From the sequence record MN153797.1: 48,822 bases of DNA. One strand, written 5' to 3'. This DNA comes from Tunavirus T1. The translations under genes and the position numbers were made by a program. This document shows positions 1 through 43,968 of this stretch, piece after piece; position 1 is the first letter of the stretch; every line of letters starts with the position of its first letter. The notes beneath the pieces were generated by a model. It was not told the DNA's origin and ran no database searches. It saw only the letters and a program-made list of their open reading frames with translations.

Positions 1-448
1 GTTGCATGGTGTGCAACTGTTGATGTGATTGTTTCTTAGAATGCAATGATTGTGAGAGGGGGGATCTAGTGTTACCAGGTTCGCCTGGTAGTCATCTCCA
101 TTTTTAGCAAAAAGTGCTATCGATTACGATTACGCTTGATTGCGTGTTAATCATTGTATATGATTTGCCTAAATCGCAATCGTATACAAAATTACGCCAA
201 ATTACGCCTTATAATATACATATAGATATATGTATATATATAATATATAAGTGTTTTTTTTATTTATATATATAGATACTATTATTTGTAATATGGTTGT
301 ATAGCGTGTCTTTTATGTTAATCGTTGGATGCTCTGATTATGATGCTCATGTTTATATATACAGTAGTTTTATCGGCGCATATTTATTTAGGGAAATCGA
401 TTAACACGATTAACACGATTAACCACACTTAAAATCGCCCCGCAGACC
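1..448. promoter_or_regulatory. Non-coding AT-rich control region with short direct repeats; candidate pac/ori/early promoter region
   Basis: No RBS-led ORF; cgattacg x2 (121-135), aattacgcc x2 (192-209), cgattaacac x3 (399-430), 6-bp-arm palindrome gttgca..tgcaac at 1-17, GTGTAAC-type motifs at 67-73, 473-481, 493-500. Confidence 0.45.
105..119 (-). promoter_or_regulatory. TAGCA-N5-TGCTA box, minus orientation, followed by hairpin accagg-cgaa-cctggt (71-93); no -10 at the usual offset
   Basis: ttagcaaaaagtgcta read on + strand; hairpin read directly. Confidence 0.4.
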
Positions 449-538
449 TTGACACATGCGGGTCGTCGTGTAACACTACGATTAGAGACACGGTGTTACA
501 TGTTAATCATGGTGTATATTGAAACTAAGGAGAAAGCT

Positions 539-1114
539 ATGAGTTCTTACCAGTCAGACGCAGTACAGGCAGCAATCAAGGCAGCTTACGAGAAGGCCGG
601 AGTAACGGTTGAGCAGCGACCGGAGGCAAAAGTGACCGATGTTATCCGGGCCGCCTGCGATAAGCTTTATGGTGATGGCGAGAATACCGTGTTCACATTC
701 GACGCGAATAAGATGGCTGAGGCCGCAGCAAGAAAGTCGATGCCAGACGCTGACGAACATGATGTTGCCAAAGGCGCCGAGTCCTGGTTGCTCGGGAAGA
801 CGGATGAGATTAACGAGAAGTTTAAATCCTCATTCATCACCCCGATCGTTTCTCGACACTTCTCCAAGATCGGCAAGTCGGTCAAGGTGAGCGTGACCAT
901 GAACGATGAGAAGTTGCGAGTCGTTACTATCTCAGTGAGTGACGAAGAAGTTCCGGTGAAGAAGCGCCGCAGCCGGAAAAAAGTCAGCCTGGCTGATTGT
1001 CTGGATTCGTTTGTTCCTGATGTTGATGATCTTGAGAAAGGCGACGTTACTGTAAGCACCGTGCGCGACCTGGTTCGCCAGATGAAAGCGCATATCGAAA
1101 AATGTGGACTGTAA
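539..1114 (+). CDS. hypothetical protein (basic KKRRSRKK patch)
   Basis: In frame with ORF 449..1114; ATG 539 preceded by AAGGAG at 526-531. Confidence 0.5.
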   Translation: MSSYQSDAVQAAIKAAYEKAGVTVEQRPEAKVTDVIRAACDKLYGDGENTVFTFDANKMAEAAARKSMPDADEHDVAKGAESWLLGKTDEINEKFKSSFITPIVSRHFSKIGKSVKVSVTMNDEKLRVVTISVSDEEVPVKKRRSRKKVSLADCLDSFVPDVDDLEKGDVTVSTVRDLVRQMKAHIEKCGL

Positions 1115-1126
1115 GGAGAAGTAATT

Positions 1127-1453
1127 ATGTTTAATATCAAACCATTAACAGAAGCAGAGAAACAGGCTCAGGCCAAGCAAACCGAAAACATCCAAGTGAT
1201 CGCTGATGCGCTGATTGGTAAGAGGTCAATCAAAATAAACCTCGACACTGTTGGTCAGTCATTTTTTACTAAAGGTTTGGATAAGTACGTTATAAATGTG
1301 AAGGCGAGAGACCTGGTGGCGAGAATTCAAAAGCTAAACAATCAAAAGCTAAAGCTCATCAAGGTCGAAGGCAACATGTGCGAAATTGAGAACCTCAGCG
1401 CACCAGACCCGAATAAGTGGGAAATCACCGATGTCGAGTTTATCGTAGAATAG
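1127..1453 (+). CDS. hypothetical protein
   Basis: ORF track; AAGGAG RBS upstream of ATG. Confidence 0.5.
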   Translation: MFNIKPLTEAEKQAQAKQTENIQVIADALIGKRSIKINLDTVGQSFFTKGLDKYVINVKARDLVARIQKLNNQKLKLIKVEGNMCEIENLSAPDPNKWEITDVEFIVE

Positions 1454-1493
1454 CACTTTTTGTTAAAACCGGATCGGGGTATCTTGCTATAGT
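1451..1493 (+). promoter_or_regulatory. Box-dependent promoter: tagcactttttgtta box + TGc-TATAGT (1488-1493)
   Basis: Box centre to -10 start = 30 bp; box TAG is the stop codon of the upstream ORF; -10 lies in hairpin ggggta..tacccc. Confidence 0.55.
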
Positions 1494-1531
1494 TACCCCA
1501 TCAAAACGAGATACCAATCAGAGGAATCACC

Positions 1532-1762
1532 ATGTCAATCGTCAAGAACCAGCAAGCCATCGATTCAACCAATAACAACCGCTTTGCTATTTTCATCACT
1601 CGCGACAACAAGCGATTTGCAGTAAAGGCCGTACCAGGTGGATACAAAACCTACATGGAAGATAACGGAAAGTGGGTGCGGTGCGACAACCTCGCAAACT
1701 TCTTGGTCTGGAACGCAGACCTGCAGGGATTCGATGACATCAGCACTTTAATTGAGGAGTAA
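1532..1762 (+). CDS. hypothetical protein
   Basis: ORF track; RBS gaggaa. Confidence 0.5.
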   Translation: MSIVKNQQAIDSTNNNRFAIFITRDNKRFAVKAVPGGYKTYMEDNGKWVRCDNLANFLVWNADLQGFDDISTLIEE

Positions 1763-1767
1763 TAATC

Positions 1768-1995
1768 ATGCCACGTTACAGCAACCTAACTCAACTAACC
1801 CGCGTCAACGGGCACATGATCCCGGCAAAATCCACTCACTACGCAATGGGAGCAAAGCACGGATTGTATTTCAAATGGCGCGGTCAATGGAACTTCACGG
1901 TTATTCGTAATTTCTACATTAGAGTTACAGGTGATGACCCGCAATCGGTCGTAGAGAACTCAATCGGCGACAACAAGATCGAGGTGCTGAAATGA
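1768..1995 (+). CDS. hypothetical protein
   Basis: ORF track; RBS gaggag. Confidence 0.5.
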   Translation: MPRYSNLTQLTRVNGHMIPAKSTHYAMGAKHGLYFKWRGQWNFTVIRNFYIRVTGDDPQSVVENSIGDNKIEVLK

Positions 1996-2098
1996 ACTTC
2001 AACATAATTGCTTTCTGGTCTGCCGTATGGTTCTTTTGCGTAGGTCATGTTGTGGTTGGAATCGTAATCATGTTGCTACTGTGTGCGGGAGCGTTCGA

Positions 2099-2272
2099 AT
2101 GATGCGGATTCTGATTTGCATGATGGCGGCGGTCGCCATGGCTATCCTGGTAGTGTCCGGCTGCGGCGAGGCCAGGGATAGCTGTCATGAAACCGGGAGC
2201 CAGGTTACTACTTTCGTGATGGTTGGCAACGTATTGCTACCAATAACATCAAATGAAATCACTTGCGAATAG
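2099..2272 (+). CDS. small putative lipoprotein (signal peptide MMRILICMMAAVAMAILVVSGC)
   Basis: Internal ATG of ORF 2027..2272 preceded by gggag; hydrophobic N-terminus ending in lipobox-like VSGC. Confidence 0.4.
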   Translation: MMRILICMMAAVAMAILVVSGCGEARDSCHETGSQVTTFVMVGNVLLPITSNEITCE

Positions 2273-2312
2273 CACTTTTTGTTAAAACTCAACTCCGGGG
2301 TTGCGATATAGT
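2270..2312 (+). promoter_or_regulatory. Box-dependent promoter: tagcactttttgtta + TATAGT (2307-2312)
   Basis: Centre to -10 = 30 bp; -10 in hairpin ggggtt..aacccc; box TAG = upstream stop codon. Confidence 0.55.
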
Positions 2313-2343
2313 AACCCCATCGACAACGAACGAGGACGCAAAC

Positions 2344-2832
2344 ATGAAAATTAAATTACTTAGCAATGGCGGTTACAAGGGATTCACCCGCGACCTGGAA
2401 GCTGACCCTATCGTGGTTGACGCGGTTAAGTGCGACTCAAGTACTGGAGGCTACCGCGTTAAGGTTGATGACCTTGTAAAAGCTGGCGTGTACGATCTTG
2501 ATTATGGCCTGTCGGTTAGCCCGGTATTTGGCCCAGCTGACTTCAACGAGAAAGACGGAACGATGTTCTTTTTTGATTGGGAAGTGAAGGCAAACATCAA
2601 GCCGCGCAAGGTTCGTCTTCTCAGCAATGGCGGCTACCCGATGCGACCAGGTTATGAGAATCGCACGTTCCCGGTTATCGTTGACTTCATTGGGACAACT
2701 GACAACTTGGTATACGTTAGCCATGAGCAACTTAAGGCAGTTGGATTCGTTGGCGGTATGAATAAAGAAGCGCTTTGCTTCTTCCATCGATGTCCAGAGC
2801 CGATCGGTATTGAGTGCGAGTTAGTATACTAA
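2344..2832 (+). CDS. hypothetical protein with internal duplicated motif K(I/V)(K/R)LLSNGGY
   Basis: ATG 2344 in frame with ORF 2263..2832, RBS gagga; repeat seen in translation. Confidence 0.5.
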   Translation: MKIKLLSNGGYKGFTRDLEADPIVVDAVKCDSSTGGYRVKVDDLVKAGVYDLDYGLSVSPVFGPADFNEKDGTMFFFDWEVKANIKPRKVRLLSNGGYPMRPGYENRTFPVIVDFIGTTDNLVYVSHEQLKAVGFVGGMNKEALCFFHRCPEPIGIECELVY

Positions 2833-3389: not shown

Positions 3390-3538
3390 TGACTGCATGG
3401 GTCTTGATTATCTTGATGAGCAAAGGTCCGGATCACGTATACATGGAAAGTCAACAATCATGCAACAAGGCACGGGAAGTTATCGCAGAGAACAAGCCGT
3501 TCGGATATGAAGTAAAAACTATGTGCGTTAAACGATAG
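3389..3538 (+). CDS. small hypothetical protein (49 aa)
   Basis: ATG overlaps upstream stop (taATGa); stop TAG is first triplet of the next box; below ORF-track size cutoff. Confidence 0.3.
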   Translation: MTAWVLIILMSKGPDHVYMESQQSCNKAREVIAENKPFGYEVKTMCVKR

Positions 3539-3578
3539 CACGAATTGCTAAACCTTCCGCAAGGCCATTTGATATAGT
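3536..3578 (+). promoter_or_regulatory. Box-dependent promoter: tagcacgaattgcta + TGa-TATAGT (3573-3578)
   Basis: Centre to -10 = 30 bp; hairpin aaggcca..tggcctt. Confidence 0.55.
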
Positions 3579-3618: not shown

Positions 3619-3993
3619 ATGAAATTCGAATGTATCAGCGATAACACCAAAAAATTTACTGTTGGCAAAATTTACGATGTTCCGACTGAGCACGCAGAGC
3701 AAACCGTAGCTCTGACCGACGACACGGGCCGCAACCGAATTGCAACCGTAACTCACAACGGTGAAGGTCTTCGCTGGAATAGCGGCGGCACTAAGTTCGC
3801 AACGTTCGACAAGAAGCGCAAGCGCACCTTCCGCGTCAACGGCAATGTTGCAGCTAACAAGATCCATAACGTCAAGCCGTCGGAAGTTGACCGCAAGCCA
3901 GCGCTGAAGTTTAAAGAGAAGGTGGATTTATTCAATCTTGCCGCCTCGCTTGTTCTCCTGGTCGCTGCTATTTCGCTGCTTTCCATCATGTAA
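3619..3993 (+). CDS. hypothetical protein with C-terminal transmembrane anchor
   Basis: Internal ATG of ORF 3577..3993 preceded by GGAGG; hydrophobic C-terminus LAASLVLLVAAISLLSIM. Confidence 0.5.
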   Translation: MKFECISDNTKKFTVGKIYDVPTEHAEQTVALTDDTGRNRIATVTHNGEGLRWNSGGTKFATFDKKRKRTFRVNGNVAANKIHNVKPSEVDRKPALKFKEKVDLFNLAASLVLLVAAISLLSIM

Positions 3994-4864: not shown

Positions 4865-4907
4865 TAGCACGAATTGCTAAAACTTGCTCAAGGGCATTTG
4901 TTAGAAT
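4865..4907 (+). promoter_or_regulatory. Box-dependent promoter: tagcacgaattgcta + TGt-TAGAAT (4902-4907)
   Basis: Centre to -10 = 30 bp; hairpin aagggcat..atgccctt. Confidence 0.55.
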
Positions 4908-5961: not shown

Positions 5962-6534
5962 ATGAAAACAGCTATCATTTTAAACGGCGCACCTGGTGCG
6001 GGAAAGGACACTATCGGATGCATCCTGGCTGACACTTACGATCATGTAGCGCTACGCAGCTTCAAAGCGCCAATGTTTGAGATTGCCCGAGCAATCCTGG
6101 GTGAGACTAATTTCGAGTATTTCATGTTCTTGTATGAGGACCGTCGCTATAAAGAAGAGCCAGCGTCAATCCTGAACGGTAAAAGCCCGCGCCAGTTTAT
6201 GATCTGGATTAGCGAGGAGGTCATCAAGCCGCAGTTCGGAAATCGCTTCTTCGGTATGCGAGCGGAAAGTAAGGTGAAAGAGTCGCATTCACTTTCGGTA
6301 TTTACTGACGGTGGATTCAAAGACGAGATCTTGCAGATGATTGAAGGTGACATCCAGGTCAAGCTGTGTCGAATCCATCGCAACGGTTGCAACTTTGACA
6401 ACGACAGTCGCGACTATATCTATCTTGACGATATGATCGGGGTCAACGGTTATCAGGAGTGTGACTTCTTTTCTGTCGAAGGCCATCCAGAAATTACCGC
6501 TCAGCACATAGCCGCCACGTTCATCAATAAATAG
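5962..6534 (+). CDS. P-loop nucleotide kinase (dNMP kinase-like)
   Basis: Walker A GAPGAGKDT at N-terminus; size and layout fit small (d)NMP kinases. Confidence 0.55.
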   Translation: MKTAIILNGAPGAGKDTIGCILADTYDHVALRSFKAPMFEIARAILGETNFEYFMFLYEDRRYKEEPASILNGKSPRQFMIWISEEVIKPQFGNRFFGMRAESKVKESHSLSVFTDGGFKDEILQMIEGDIQVKLCRIHRNGCNFDNDSRDYIYLDDMIGVNGYQECDFFSVEGHPEITAQHIAATFINK

Positions 6535-6574
6535 CACGAATTGCTAAAACGTCGGTGTGGTGATTTGATATAGT
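6532..6574 (+). promoter_or_regulatory. Box-dependent promoter: tagcacgaattgcta + TGa-TATAGT (6569-6574)
   Basis: Centre to -10 = 30 bp; box TAG = stop of kinase gene. Confidence 0.55.
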
Positions 6575-29602: not shown

Positions 29603-29625
29603 GCCCCTTGCGGGGCTTTTATTTT
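29603..29625. terminator. Bidirectional terminator between convergent genes
   Basis: gcccc-ttgc-ggggc with T-runs on both strands. Confidence 0.6.
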
Positions 29626-29851
29626 ATATCGAGCAATCGTGAGATTTGAAGTTTTTCTCTGATACATAGTTGAAGGAGAATGGGTATCCAGCACGCAATA
29701 CCATCTCCTTTCCGCGCATCTTAGATCCAAAAACGTAAACCGAGTACTCCGCGCCGCCTGATTCATAAATTGCCGTGCAAGTGCGCTCAGGCATCGATGA
29801 GCAACCAGTCAGGATGAATGCCGCAGCGATAACGGTGATTAACTTTTTCAT
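29624..29851 (-). CDS. cor: Cor-like small lipoprotein (candidate superinfection exclusion / receptor blocking)
   Basis: 75 aa; signal peptide MKKLITVIAAAFILTGC with lipobox LTGC; convergent with tail genes. Confidence 0.5.
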   Translation of the reverse strand: MKKLITVIAAAFILTGCSSMPERTCTAIYESGGAEYSVYVFGSKMRGKEMVLRAGYPFSFNYVSEKNFKSHDCSI

Positions 29852-39723: not shown

Positions 39724-39971
39724 TGAGCGAAAAAATGGTTCCTGTTAAATTAACTGAGCAAGGTTTATGGCTACTTTATCGAGCTACGTGCTGCGAAATT
39801 ATGGAGCGAAACGGATTGACTCAGGATGTTATTGGTTGCGATCTGTGGGAGTTCACTAGTTCTCTTGATATGTCTTTCGATGAGATAAAAAATGAATACA
39901 TAGAGAACTGGCCTTCAATCATACAGAAAGACGTGGAAGAACTTAAAGCTGATACAATCGTACAGCACTAA
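39720..39971 (+). CDS. hypothetical protein
   Basis: ATG overlaps dam stop; RBS ggtgagga. Confidence 0.45.
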   Translation: MMSEKMVPVKLTEQGLWLLYRATCCEIMERNGLTQDVIGCDLWEFTSSLDMSFDEIKNEYIENWPSIIQKDVEELKADTIVQH

Positions 39972-40005
39972 TTGCTAAAACTACCCGGCGAAAGTCGGGT
40001 ATAGT
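39963..40005 (+). promoter_or_regulatory. Box-dependent promoter: cagcactaattgcta + TATAGT (40000-40005)
   Basis: Centre to -10 = 30 bp; hairpin acccgg-cgaaagt-cgggt just upstream of -10. Confidence 0.5.
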
Positions 40006-43079: not shown

Positions 43080-43567
43080 TGAGTTTAAAAAATAACGTTA
43101 TAGGCGCATCAATCGGGGCCGCTTTGACGTTGACACCTACCCTACTGGAACGGATCGAAGGTATAGAATACGAGGTTTATTACGATATCGCCGGAGTCCC
43201 TACCGTATGCAGCGGAATAACCGGGCCTGACGTCATACCTGGTAAGAAATACACTAAGCGAGAATGCGATGCATTGCTGATAAAACATATCGGCGTCGCT
43301 CAGCGATACGTTGACAAGAAGGTTAAGGTTGACATTCCGGTAACTATGCGCGCATCACTGTATAGCTTCACTTTCAACGTTGGGACTGGCGCTTTCGGAT
43401 CGTCTACAATGCTTAAGCTAATCAATCAGAGCAAGCACAAAGAAGCGTGTAATCAGTTATGGCGATGGGTATACTACTACAACCCAAAAACCAAAAAGCG
43501 CGAAGTGTCGAGAGGGATCAAGAATCGGCGCGCTGAAGAATACGCATATTGCGTTAAGGAACTATAA
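43079..43567 (+). CDS. endolysin (lysozyme-like, probable N-terminal signal-anchor-release segment)
   Basis: N-terminal weakly hydrophobic [17 protein letters not shown] then [21 protein letters not shown] lysozyme-like region. Confidence 0.7.
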
Positions 43568-43968
43568 TGAAACTTAAGAAAACGTGCATTGCAATTACGG
43601 TTGCTGTTGGTGTGATTTCTCTATCCGGTTGTTCGACGGCATCTGCTCTGAGTGGTTTACTTTCTGACTCCCAGGATGTTACGGCGCAGGTTGGCGCTGA
43701 GAACACAAAACAACTAGCAGGAGTAACAGCAAAGGCGGATGATAAGCGAGAAGTGAAGGTGAGTGATTCAAATATTGGCAAGATTGACTCATCCGTCAAG
43801 AAGTCCGTGGAGGTGTCAACCATTCAGGCCAACACGGTTAACGCTGAAAGCATCACAGTAACCAAATCTGGAAGCTGGTACGATCCTGTGGTTTGCTGGA
43901 TTCTCGTTTTTATTGTCCTGTTGCTGTTTTATTTTTTAATTCGTAAGCACGAAAAAAAGGAGGCGTAA
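43567..43968 (+). CDS. unimolecular spanin (lipoprotein signal plus C-terminal TM helix)
   Basis: N-terminal lipobox LSGC, C-terminal TM WILVFIVLLLFYFLI; directly after endolysin. Confidence 0.6.
   Translation: MKLKKTCIAITVAVGVISLSGCSTASALSGLLSDSQDVTAQVGAENTKQLAGVTAKADDKREVKVSDSNIGKIDSSVKKSVEVSTIQANTVNAESITVTKSGSWYDPVVCWILVFIVLLLFYFLIRKHEKKEA

What the first reader, a model, noticed from the sequence alone, without database searches (positions are those of the whole stretch)
2099..2272. Second small putative lipoprotein in the early region
Inside ORF 2027..2272 an ATG with RBS gggag starts a 57-aa product with N-terminus MMRILICMMAAVAMAILVVSGC, that is, a signal peptide ending in a lipobox-like cysteine. 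An early-expressed lipoprotein could be another envelope-targeted exclusion or anti-defence factor.
Basis: inference. Interest (0 to 1): 0.35.

Follow-up and report, generated by a model that had tools for sequence, protein, structure and literature searches.

The report
Small phage T1 hairpin lipoprotein
This is a real, conserved but dispensable gene of coliphage T1 that very probably makes a tiny lipid-anchored protein facing the space between the two bacterial membranes. Its job is untested; it is a modest, plausible candidate for a new kind of phage factor that alters the bacterial cell envelope.

Summary
The window is coliphage T1. The finding is its annotated CDS Orf 72 (CPTT1_006, AAP49928.1, 2099..2272, "hypothetical protein").

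**Observation confirmed.**
- GGGAG lies 7 nt upstream of ATG 2099.
- The 57-aa product has Arg3, an uncharged hydrophobic core and the lipobox VSGC, with Cys22.
- The rival upstream start at 2027 is refuted. It is CTG in 11 of 11 relatives, two relatives carry in-frame stops, and codon-position variation there follows the overlapping Orf 73 frame.

**The gene is real.** pN/pS is 0.15. The lipobox is kept in 34 of 40 distinct family sequences, including ~35%-identical relatives from unrelated phage-like contigs.

**Predicted product.** The mature 36-aa product is modelled as a β-hairpin (AF2 pLDDT 78) with invariant Gly43 and Pro48. Near-invariant Cys29 and Cys56 probably form a disulfide.

**Context.** The gene abuts a 36-aa transmembrane peptide gene (Orf 73, ATGA overlap) in 54 of 55 phage records. 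It closes a four-gene module bounded by T1's ATAGCAC…TTGnTAAA repeats.

**No known relatives.** I found no homology to Cor, Llp or Rtp45, to Pfam, NCBIfam or PADLOC, or to any PDB or BFVD fold. It is absent from cellular genomes and plasmids.

**Function.** Function is untested. It most likely binds an envelope protein from the periplasm, as an exclusion-type factor. Natural deletions and frameshifts show it is dispensable.

The parts
2087..2091 (+). Shine-Dalgarno GGGAG, 7 nt upstream of the start; lies inside the 3' end of Orf 73
   Evidence: Sequence. GenBank RBS feature at 2088..2091. Position 2090 is A or G in relatives, which is synonymous in the Orf 73 frame.
2099..2272 (+). Orf 72 CDS (CPTT1_006 / AAP49928.1), 57 aa, member of phrog_8628
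   Evidence: Purifying selection: pN/pS 0.15, variable sites 9/9/36 by codon position. Found in 54 phage records.
2099..2161 (+). Predicted SPase II signal peptide, residues 1-21 (MMR n-region, hydrophobic core ILICMMAAVAMAILVV)
   Evidence: Rule-based scan. AF2 helix at residues 2-20. pN/pS 0.14.
2153..2164 (+). Lipobox V19-S20-G21-C22; Cys22 is the predicted lipidated first residue of the mature protein. Gly at +2 and Glu at +3 follow it (2165-2170, in the hairpin-domain row)
   Evidence: VSGC in nearly all Tunavirus copies, and VTGC, LAAC or LAGC in distant relatives.
2183..2266 (+). Predicted disulfide-closed β-hairpin domain, Cys29 to Cys56. Strands 31-42 and 45-56, turn Gly43-Asn44, Pro48. 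Tip VTTFVMVGNVLLPIT is hydrophobic on both faces
   Evidence: AF2 pLDDT 83-90 over residues 31-50 with alignment A4. G43 and P48 are invariant, and C56, T37 and I49 are at least 90% conserved, over 27 sequences. C29 is at least 90% conserved in the closer set.
1992..2102 (+). Orf 73, a 36-aa very hydrophobic peptide with no basic residue. Its stop TGA overlaps the Orf 72 start (ATGA), making it the likely translationally coupled partner
   Evidence: annotated single TM. phrog_25570. pN/pS 0.11. Abuts Orf 72 in 54 of 55 phage records.
2027..2029 (+). T1-only ATG that creates the misleading 81-aa ORF; not a start codon
   Evidence: CTG in 11 of 11 relatives; in-frame stops in L009 and L014. Variation over 2027-2098 is 16/6/3 in this frame against 6/3/16 in the Orf 73 frame.
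2270..2286 (+). Copy of the T1/TLS direct repeat TAGCACnnnTTGnTAAA. Its TAG is the Orf 72 stop codon. It marks the 3' boundary of the module and is followed by a hairpin-flanked TATAGT
   Evidence: The repeat is described for TLS and T1 in PMC11447400.
1451..1467 (+). Upstream copy of the same repeat; 5' boundary of the module Orf 75-74-73-72
1532..1995 (+). Orf 75 (1532..1762) and Orf 74 (1768..1995, DUF7274), co-module genes upstream of Orf 73/72
   Evidence: The same order is seen in the distant T1-like contig L015.

Best explanation
Orf 72 is a genuine accessory gene of T1-like (Tunavirus) phages.

Shown or strongly supported by sequence:
- Translation starts at ATG 2099 and is coupled through an ATGA overlap to the 36-aa membrane peptide Orf 73.
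- The precursor carries a Sec-type signal peptide ending in the lipobox VSGC.

Inferred from the established lipoprotein pathway:
- Cys22 is diacylglycerol-modified by Lgt, the signal peptide is cut by signal peptidase II, and the new N-terminus is acylated by Lnt.
- This leaves a 36-residue lipopeptide in the periplasm.

Inferred from conservation and the AF2 model:
- Residues 29-56 form one long β-hairpin.
- It is closed at its base by a Cys29-Cys56 disulfide.
- Its tip (VTTFVMV-GN-VLLPIT) is hydrophobic on both faces, so it should not be stable alone in water.

My best mechanistic guess, which is untested:
- The tethered hairpin docks onto a periplasm-exposed part of a host envelope protein, probably by adding strands to an existing β-sheet.
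- This changes or blocks that protein from the start of infection.
- It would be an exclusion or entry-blocking function, additional to Cor and aimed at a different target or step.
- Orf 73 possibly acts as its inner-membrane partner.

The confidence of 0.4 is for the functional claim. I put the anatomy (real gene, start at 2099, lipoprotein, hairpin) at about 0.85.
For: Identity and annotation.

Start codon.

Coding and purifying selection.

Lipobox rule and its conservation, including relatives at about 35% identity with unrelated signal sequences. UniRef names the Shfl1 homologue 'Lipoprotein'.

Hairpin:
- AF2 gives the same topology with two alignments (pLDDT 69, then 78).
- G43 and P48 are invariant, and the Cys pair is conserved.

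Pairing with Orf 73:
- The two genes abut in 54 of 55 phage records.
- A non-homologous 41-aa TM peptide overlaps the start of the distant relative P0025.

Phage context:
- Relatives sit in arrays of small unidirectional genes on phage-like contigs.
- The family is absent from 5,426 complete E. coli genomes, from plasmids and from GTDB representative genomes.

Precedent for the mechanism:
- T5 Llp is a 61-aa periplasmic lipoprotein whose Cys11-Cys58 disulfide ties its termini; it jams FhuA (PMC9586334).
- Rtp45 is a ~6-kDa lipoprotein with a disulfide that forms a β-sheet with LptD strand β6 (PMC12685063).
Against: - There is no experimental datum on this protein or any homologue.
- There is no sequence or fold similarity to Cor, Llp, Rtp45 or anything else of known function.
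- Known Drexlerviridae exclusion lipoproteins are encoded next to the receptor-binding locus (PMC8594841). T1's Cor is there, about 27 kb from Orf 72.
- The lipid anchor is not universal. P0019 and P0027 have Tyr in place of Cys22, P0032 has a TM anchor, DELF2 has C22F, and SH6 has G21V.
- IME18 has Asp at +2, the inner-membrane retention signal (rule cited in PMC5727369). The outer membrane may therefore not be the site of action.
- The AF2 model has only moderate confidence, and a 35-residue hairpin cannot be matched meaningfully against fold libraries.
- Early timing is inferred from gene position only.
Confidence: 0.4

Rival explanations
1. Entry block at the inner membrane or in the periplasm. 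The hairpin acts at the periplasmic face of the inner membrane, together with the Orf 73 membrane peptide, or acts on the incoming tail tip or tape-measure protein of a second phage. It would stop DNA injection rather than mask an outer-membrane receptor. It would work like T4 Imm/Sp, HK97 gp15 or the TP-J34 Ltp lipoprotein (comparison from my own knowledge).
For: - Translational coupling and near-perfect co-occurrence with a 36-aa TM peptide.
- Variants without a lipidated Cys (P0019, P0027) or with a TM anchor (P0032) keep the hairpin.
- IME18 carries the Asp+2 retention signal.
- From memory (Seydel et al. 1999), Gly at +2 has been reported to retain a reporter lipoprotein in the inner membrane. 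I could not check this here.
- Cor already covers FhuA masking in T1.
Against: - Most copies have Gly, Ser or Val at +2, which by the standard rule means Lol export to the outer membrane.
- There is no similarity to Imm, Sp, SieA, gp15 or Ltp models in PHROGs, Pfam or PADLOC.
- There are no experimental data.
Confidence: 0.2
2. Host-envelope takeover unrelated to exclusion. The lipopeptide inhibits or re-tunes a host envelope process to favour T1 growth, or to evade an envelope-linked defence. Candidate processes are cell-wall or outer-membrane assembly, an envelope stress sensor, vesiculation, or lysis timing.
For: - Position among small accessory genes of unknown function in the presumed early array.
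- A hydrophobic hairpin suits insertion into a membrane or into a lateral gate of a β-barrel. A β-strand peptide was seen occupying the LptD gate in PMC12685063.
- The gene is dispensable and frequently lost, as is typical of conditionally useful host-interaction genes.
Against: - There is no hit to any anti-defence or defence model.
- The gene is not near the lysis cassette, and T1's spanin is elsewhere.
- Nothing in the data points to a specific process.
Confidence: 0.15
3. Not a lipoprotein in vivo. The N-terminus serves only as an ordinary signal peptide or an uncleaved membrane anchor, and the lipobox match is incidental.
For: - The rule gives 7 spurious hits in six-frame ORFs of this genome.
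- Six of 40 family sequences lack a rule-conforming lipobox.
- Pfam LPAM_1 does not hit Orf 72, although it just reaches threshold on Cor.
Against: - The lipobox Cys is preserved in 34 of 40 sequences.
- It is recreated on quite different signal peptides in relatives at about 35% identity (VTGC, LAAC, LAGC), which argues for selection on lipidation.
- Some exceptions come from error-prone records (ISF001, vB_SsoS_008).
Confidence: 0.1
4. The real product is the 81-aa protein from ATG 2027, or the ORF is not expressed at all.
For: An ATG at 2027 opens the frame in T1.
Against: - That ATG is CTG in all 11 relatives.
- Two relatives have stops in the extension.
- Substitutions there are phased to Orf 73, not to this frame.
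- Downstream of 2099 the phase switches to Orf 72, with pN/pS 0.15.
Confidence: 0.02

Closest known systems
T5 Llp and the T1/phi80/N15 Cor superinfection-exclusion lipoproteins (FhuA blockers)
   Same: - A small phage-encoded lipoprotein facing the periplasm.
- A short linker after the lipidated Cys, then a domain whose ends are tied by one intramolecular disulfide. In Llp this is Cys11-Cys58 (PMC9586334); in Orf 72 it is predicted as mature Cys8-Cys35.
- Made by a virulent siphophage of E. coli.
   Different: - No sequence similarity: BLASTP against T1 Cor finds nothing, a profile search of PDB does not find Llp, and there is no PF24052 hit.
- The mature part is about half the size (36 aa against 61).
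- Predicted to be a single hairpin, not a small globular fold.
- Encoded in the left-end small-gene array, not beside the receptor-binding or tail-fibre locus, where T1's Cor sits.
- Target unknown.
Rtp45 (phage Rtp, Drexlerviridae), the LptDE-binding exclusion lipoprotein
   Same: - Same phage family.
- A ~6-kDa periplasmic lipoprotein with a disulfide that binds its target partly by β-sheet formation with LptD (PMC12685063). This is the binding mode I propose for the Orf 72 hairpin.
   Different: - No detectable homology.
- Rtp45 is encoded with its cognate receptor-binding protein, and Orf 72 is not.
- T1 uses FhuA, not LptD.
o-spanins (Rz1) and the T1 unimolecular spanin gp11
   Same: - Small phage outer-membrane lipoproteins with functionally important cysteines.
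- A membrane-protein gene partner that overlaps or abuts it.
   Different: - Not in the lysis cassette; T1's u-spanin is at 43567..43968.
- Orf 73 has no periplasmic domain to bridge the envelope.
- The PHROG 'Rz-like spanin' hit has E = 0.12 and covers the signal peptide only.
phrog_8628 (PHROGs family of unknown function)
   Same: Orf 72 matches it end to end, E = 7e-29.
   Different: The family carries no functional annotation. The wider lipobox/hairpin relatives found here (P0024-P0026, P0030-P0032) extend beyond it.

Membership tests
Bacterial lipoprotein precursors (signal peptidase II substrates; PROSITE PS51257-type rule) | Positively charged n-region (K/R within the first 7 residues) | tested here: met
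   Arg3.
Bacterial lipoprotein precursors (signal peptidase II substrates; PROSITE PS51257-type rule) | Uncharged hydrophobic core followed by the lipobox [LVI][ASTVI][GAS]C, with Cys at position 15-35 | tested here: met
   ILICMMAAVAMAILV-VSGC, Cys22. Kept in 34 of 40 distinct family sequences.
Bacterial lipoprotein precursors (signal peptidase II substrates; PROSITE PS51257-type rule) | Prediction by dedicated tools (LipoP, SignalP 6 Sec/SPII) | not tested
   No such tool was available. The only third-party call is UniRef's 'Lipoprotein' name for the Shfl1 homologue.
Bacterial lipoprotein precursors (signal peptidase II substrates; PROSITE PS51257-type rule) | Lipid modification and globomycin-sensitive cleavage shown experimentally | not testable with these tools
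   Wet-lab assay required.
Outer-membrane (Lol-exported) lipoproteins of Enterobacteria | No Asp at +2 (no Lol-avoidance signal) | tested here: inconclusive
   T1 has Gly+2/Glu+3, and most copies have G, S or V at +2. IME18 has Asp+2, and some relatives lack the lipid anchor altogether. Rule as cited in PMC5727369.
Cor / Llp / Rtp45-type superinfection-exclusion lipoproteins | Sequence or profile homology to Cor, Llp or Rtp45 (e.g. Pfam PF24052, Phage_lipoprotein) | tested here: not met
   No BLASTP alignment to T1 Cor; no Pfam hit at E <= 1; the profile against all PDB chains returns only a chance NusG hit at E = 1.5. Weak control: T1 Cor's own PF24052 match is sub-threshold (16.4 bits against a 27-bit cutoff, E = 0.009), so absence of a PF24052 hit is weak evidence by itself.
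Cor / Llp / Rtp45-type superinfection-exclusion lipoproteins | Gene located next to the receptor-binding protein or gpJ locus | tested here: not met
   Orf 72 is at 2.1 kb. The tail-fibre J gene ends at 28.56 kb, and cor lies at 29.6 kb. Rule stated in PMC8594841.
Cor / Llp / Rtp45-type superinfection-exclusion lipoproteins | Small periplasmic lipoprotein with an intramolecular disulfide | tested here: met
   Predicted only: a 36-aa mature product with a conserved Cys29/Cys56 pair at the base of the modelled hairpin.
Cor / Llp / Rtp45-type superinfection-exclusion lipoproteins | Binds the phage's own receptor and abolishes adsorption | not testable with these tools
   Needs plating or adsorption assays, or a complex structure. 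No multimer prediction tool was available.
o-spanin (Rz1-like) | Encoded in or next to the lysis cassette, paired with an i-spanin that has a long periplasmic domain | tested here: not met
   The gene lies far from the u-spanin ORF at 43567..43968, which belongs to T1's lysis module (PMC13164509). Orf 73 is 36 aa and almost entirely hydrophobic. PHROG Rz-like hit E = 0.12.
phrog_8628 | Significant full-length HMM match | tested here: met
   E = 7e-29, residues 1-57 on profile positions 6-65 of 66.

The most novel reading that the evidence does not exclude
Orf 72 founds a previously unrecognised, phage-only family of periplasmic mini-binders.

- Each member is a ~28-residue disulfide-stapled β-hairpin, with the motif T-T-[FY]-V-M-x-G-x-V-[LM]-x-P-I.
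- The hairpin is delivered on interchangeable tethers: a lipid, a TM helix or a cleavable signal.
- In T1-like phages it is co-translated with a 36-aa membrane peptide.
- It would jam a host envelope machine by β-strand augmentation. Candidates are a β-barrel lateral gate (Bam or Lpt), a TonB-dependent transporter or the TonB system, or an inner-membrane DNA-entry factor.
- That would give T1 a second exclusion or takeover function independent of Cor.
- It would also offer a natural peptide template for envelope inhibitors.
Probability: 0.2. Interest if true: 0.6.

Novelty: new variant of a known kind. Interest (0 to 1): 0.3.

Why it matters
About half of T1's genes, mostly small ORFs like this one, have no known function (PMC13164509).

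Small phage lipoproteins such as Llp, Cor and Rtp45 have recently been shown to jam essential or important outer-membrane machines from the periplasm. They are of interest as templates for envelope-targeting inhibitors (PMC9586334, PMC12685063).

Orf 72 is shorter than any of these, unrelated in sequence, and has recognisable relatives in unrelated phage-like contigs. If it binds a defined envelope target, it would be:
- one of the smallest natural protein binders of that kind;
- an easy object for peptide mimicry;
- a second, Cor-independent layer of T1's control of the infected cell surface.

If it has no phenotype, it remains one more dispensable accessory ORF. As it stands, the result is a clean re-annotation (lipoprotein, correct start, gene pair) rather than a discovery.

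Tried and rejected
**Upstream start at 2027.** Rejected on comparative grounds.

**Homology to known families.**
- Pfam gave nothing for Orf 72.
- NCBIfam gave only sub-threshold signal-peptide matches such as LptM and LppK.
- PADLOC gave nothing.
- PHROGs gave only phrog_8628, of unknown function.

**Solved structures.** The profile against all PDB chains gave one chance hit, NusG, E = 1.5. Foldseek of the AF2 model had a best E of 0.2 against BFVD and 4.0 against PDB. This is expected for a 35-residue hairpin, so the negative result is weak evidence.

**Direct comparison with T1 Cor.** No alignment.

**Presence in cellular DNA.** No match in 5,426 complete E. coli genomes or in PLSDB plasmids. 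Two scans of GTDB representative genomes found no confirmed relatives. One attempted alignment was too diverse for the scan.

**Idea rejected.** I considered that loss of the lipobox Cys goes with loss of Orf 73, as in contig L015. It does not: P0027 also lacks the Cys but keeps Orf 73 upstream.

**Literature.**
- Nothing was found under the accession, locus tag, PHROG number or Shfl1p08.
- Nothing about an early T1 lipoprotein was found.
- The T1 genome paper (PMID 14972552, cited in the GenBank record) was not looked up.
- The Rtp genome paper (PMC1367250) and Lewenza et al. 2006 are not held.

**Other.** Rfam found no RNA family anywhere in the window. The generic sigma-70/terminator scan did not pick up the repeat-associated promoter-like sites.

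Full report
**What the window is.** A 1.2-kb stretch around the finding is 100% identical to Escherichia phage T1 (AY216660, NC_005833, MK213796). In GenBank, 2099..2272 is already a CDS: CPTT1_006, AAP49928.1, "Orf no. 72", hypothetical protein, with an annotated RBS at 2088..2091. It lies inside the 2.8-kb region that MK213796 marks as the terminal repeat. It belongs to a run of small rightward genes at the left end of the genome.

**Checking the observation.**
- GGGAG at 2087-2091 lies 7 nt before ATGATG at 2099.
- The product is 57 aa: MMRILICMMAAVAMAILVVSGC|GEARDSCHETGSQVTTFVMVGNVLLPITSNEITCE.
- A script applying the PROSITE PS51257-type rule finds it satisfied, with Cys22.
- Among real T1 genes, only two others pass: Cor (29624..29851, minus strand; confirmed as Cor) and the unimolecular spanin ORF (43567..43968).
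- I found no other lipobox ORF in the early region.
- The same scan gives 7 spurious hits among six-frame ORFs, so the motif alone is not beyond chance.

**Start codon and reality of the gene.** I aligned T1 with 11 related genomes from IMG/VR.
- The upstream ATG at 2027 is CTG in all 11. In the Orf 73 frame the change is synonymous (GTA to GTC).
- Two relatives have stop codons in the 2027-2098 extension.
- Variable sites in that stretch fall 16/6/3 by codon position in the Orf 72 frame, and 6/3/16 in the Orf 73 frame.
- From 2099 onward the phase is that of Orf 72 (9/9/36), with pN/pS 0.15: 0.14 for the signal peptide and 0.16 for the mature part.
- ATG 2099 is invariant and overlaps the TGA of Orf 73 (ATGA).

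**Family and conservation.**
- Orf 72 matches phrog_8628, of unknown function, at E = 7e-29. It matches nothing in Pfam, NCBIfam or PADLOC.
- tblastn finds it in 54 of 50,697 phage records. All are T1-like Escherichia or Shigella phages, at 75-100% identity.
- A 5.8-billion-protein search adds metagenomic copies. UniRef names the Shfl1 copy "Lipoprotein".
- A profile search of 1.84 billion cluster representatives found three marginal hits (E about 5e-4). These rose to 1e-15 to 1e-18 once they were included in the profile.
- These hits (P0024, P0025, P0026), plus P0030 and P0031 from the profile search, share only about 35% identity and have unrelated signal peptides. Each nevertheless has its own lipobox (VTGC, LAAC, LAGC) and the core T-[TY]-[FY]-[VI]-M-x-G-x-V-[LM]-x-P-I; all but P0031 also have the flanking Cys pair.
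- They sit in arrays of small unidirectional genes on phage-like contigs. One contig is 91 kb with a D5-type primase, and two have 64-69% G+C.
- Overall, 34 of 40 distinct sequences keep a rule-conforming lipobox.

The exceptions are informative.
- P0019 and P0027 have Tyr in place of Cys22. By my reading of the sequences, they have plausible signal-peptidase-I sites.
- P0032 has a longer TM anchor.
- DELF2 has C22F, and SH6 has G21V.
- IME18 keeps the Cys but has Asp at +2.

The invariant element is therefore the exported hairpin. The lipid tether is the usual but not the only way of delivering it.

**Predicted structure.** AF2 gives the same topology with two alignments.
- With 20 close sequences: helix 2-19 and strands 29-42 / 45-56, pLDDT 69.
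- With 27 sequences including the distant ones: helix 2-20 and strands 31-42 / 45-56, pLDDT 78, reaching 83-90 over residues 31-50.
- Gly43 (turn) and Pro48 are invariant over all 27 sequences. Cys56 is at least 90% conserved in all 27, and Cys29 in the closer set of 20.
- Cys29 and Cys56 lie at the base of the hairpin. In the oxidising periplasm they are the obvious disulfide pair (inference).
- Read directly from the sequence, the outer half of the hairpin (V36-T50) is hydrophobic on both faces. It should therefore need a partner, a membrane or self-association.
- Foldseek against BFVD and PDB, and a profile search of all PDB sequences, found nothing.

**Genomic context.**
- Orf 73 is a 36-aa peptide with no basic residue. 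It is annotated as single-pass, belongs to phrog_25570, has pN/pS 0.11, and ends on the ATGA that starts Orf 72.
- tblastn finds Orf 73 in 55 phage records. In 54 of them Orf 72 starts where Orf 73 ends.
- The P0027 variant also keeps Orf 73. The more distant contig L015 lacks it.
- The distant relative P0025 is preceded by an overlapping, non-homologous 41-aa TM peptide.
- Orf 75-74-73-72 is bounded by two copies of the repeat TAGCACnnnTTGnTAAA, at 1451 and 2270. There are 24 copies in the window against 1.55 expected.
- The TAG of the 2270 copy is the Orf 72 stop codon. This repeat is known from phage TLS and is noted for T1. Its authors suggested it could be a stoperator, an enhancer site or an UP-element (PMC11447400).

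**Dispensability and distribution.**
- P0029 comes from a ~50-kb contig. It fuses Orf 72 residues 1-37 to the C-terminus of an Orf 68 homologue, which amounts to a natural deletion.
- EF3-1, vB_SsoS_008 and P0020-P0022 carry frameshifts. Some may be sequencing errors.
- The gene is absent from 5,426 complete E. coli genomes, from PLSDB plasmids and from GTDB representative genomes.
- It is thus an accessory gene of virulent phages, not a prophage moron.

**How it most likely works.**

*Shown:* Orf 72 is a conserved coding gene whose product has an export signal ending in a conserved lipobox and a conserved Cys-flanked hairpin motif. It is paired with a membrane peptide gene.

*Inferred from the established Lgt/LspA/Lnt/Lol pathway:* lipidation at Cys22 and cleavage follow. 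[quoted passage not shown]

*Hypothesis:* the tethered, disulfide-stapled hairpin binds a periplasm-exposed part of an envelope protein by β-strand addition and blocks or alters it.

Close mechanistic precedents exist.
- T5 Llp is 61 aa with a Cys11-Cys58 disulfide. [quoted passage not shown]
- Rtp45 comes from a phage of T1's own family. It is ~6 kDa with a disulfide and forms a β-sheet with LptD (PMC12685063).

Orf 72 works like these at the level of architecture, but it is not a member of their family.
- There is no homology.
- It is not encoded next to the receptor-binding locus, where Drexlerviridae exclusion genes lie (PMC8594841) and where T1's Cor sits.

Because Cor already covers FhuA, Orf 72 would have to act on another target or step. 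The non-lipidated variants, the Asp+2 variant and the coupling to a TM peptide keep open an inner-membrane or periplasmic site of action, meaning an injection block rather than receptor masking.

I put the anatomy (real gene, start at 2099, lipoprotein, hairpin) at about 0.85, and an exclusion or entry-blocking role at about 0.4 overall.

**Novelty and score.**
- The ORF is annotated, and an automated 'Lipoprotein' label exists for one homologue.
- No paper I could search discusses it.
- What is new here is the validated start, the conservation of the lipobox and hairpin, the wider phage-only family, the tight pairing with Orf 73, and the evidence that the gene is dispensable.
- I call it a new variant of a known kind (small phage periplasmic lipoproteins), with no functional evidence.
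- Interest is modest, at 0.3. It would rise to about 0.6 if a specific envelope target were shown.

Noticed in passing
window, 24 sites, e.g. 1451-1467, 2270-2286, 2831-2847, 3536-3552, 4865-4881, 6532-6548, 39963-39979: The known T1/TLS direct repeat TAGCACnnnTTGnTAAA occurs 24 times against 1.55 expected. In at least 7 copies a TATAGT/TATAAT-like hexamer sits exactly 20 nt after the repeat. That puts TTGnTA 22 nt from the -10, which is too far for a normal -35. In 14 of 24 copies a perfect inverted repeat of 6 bp or more brackets that hexamer (10 copies have 7 bp or more). The arm sequences differ between copies (GGGGTA/TACCCC, GGGGATT/AATCCCC, AAGGCCA/TGGCCTT, AAGGGCATT/AATGCCCTT), so the structure rather than the sequence seems conserved. 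The repeat's TAG/TAA often doubles as the stop codon of the upstream gene. Function is unknown: promoter with UP-like element, operator, terminator or RNA-processing site (PMC11447400).
   Followed up: partly
window 1992-2102 (+): Orf 73 is a 36-aa peptide with no Lys or Arg (MNFNIIAFWSAVWFFCVGHVVVGIVIMLLLCAGAFE). It is under strong purifying selection (pN/pS 0.11) and always abuts Orf 72 through an ATGA overlap (54 of 55 phage records). Some records leave it unannotated, e.g. Chapo, SH2, EF3-1 and vB_SsoS_008.
   Followed up: partly
window 2265-2290 versus L027 (phage Chapo) 1660-1900: Relatives carry an extra acidic 63-aa gene between Orf 72 and the repeat. T1 lacks it. The T1 junction (GCGAATAG|CACTTTTTG) looks like a clean deletion between two GAATAG motifs.
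   Followed up: partly
P0029 (103 aa; contig of 49,985 nt, not fetched): A natural fusion of Orf 72 residues 1-37 to the C-terminal half of an Orf 68 homologue (T1 3619..3993, a C-terminally TM-anchored protein). It implies deletion of the hairpin's second strand and of the Orf 71-69 homologues in a near-full-length T1-like genome.
   Followed up: no
L029 (EF3-1) 624-869; L028 (vB_SsoS_008) 483-886; P0020-P0022: Several independent frameshifts within Orf 72, just after the CHxTG motif. They are either recurrent inactivation or sequencing errors. The vB_SsoS_008 record also has a disrupted Orf 74 and so looks error-prone.
   Followed up: partly
L015 (Logan DRR001793 contig, 17.9 kb) 1838-2014: A more distant T1-like phage, not in INPHARED. 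Its Orf 72 homologue (57% identity) has Tyr instead of the lipobox Cys and follows Orf 74 directly with no Orf 73. The same ATAGCAC repeat with hairpin follows its stop codon.
   Followed up: partly
window 1-2800: Orf 77 to Orf 72, and part of Orf 71, lie in the 2.8-kb region annotated as T1's terminal repeat in MK213796. These genes may therefore be present twice in the first-packaged genomes, at a DNA end. I did not examine whether this affects dosage or timing.
   Followed up: no
window 1768-1995 (+): Orf 74, just upstream in the same module, is a full-length match to Pfam DUF7274 (E = 7e-41). It is conserved even in the distant contig L015.
   Followed up: no
window 29624-29851 (-) versus AY216660 29623-29850: Window coordinates are shifted by +1 relative to AY216660 at the cor gene, and the window is 14 nt shorter than the record (48,822 against 48,836). 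The window is therefore not base-for-base the GenBank record over its whole length.
   Followed up: no
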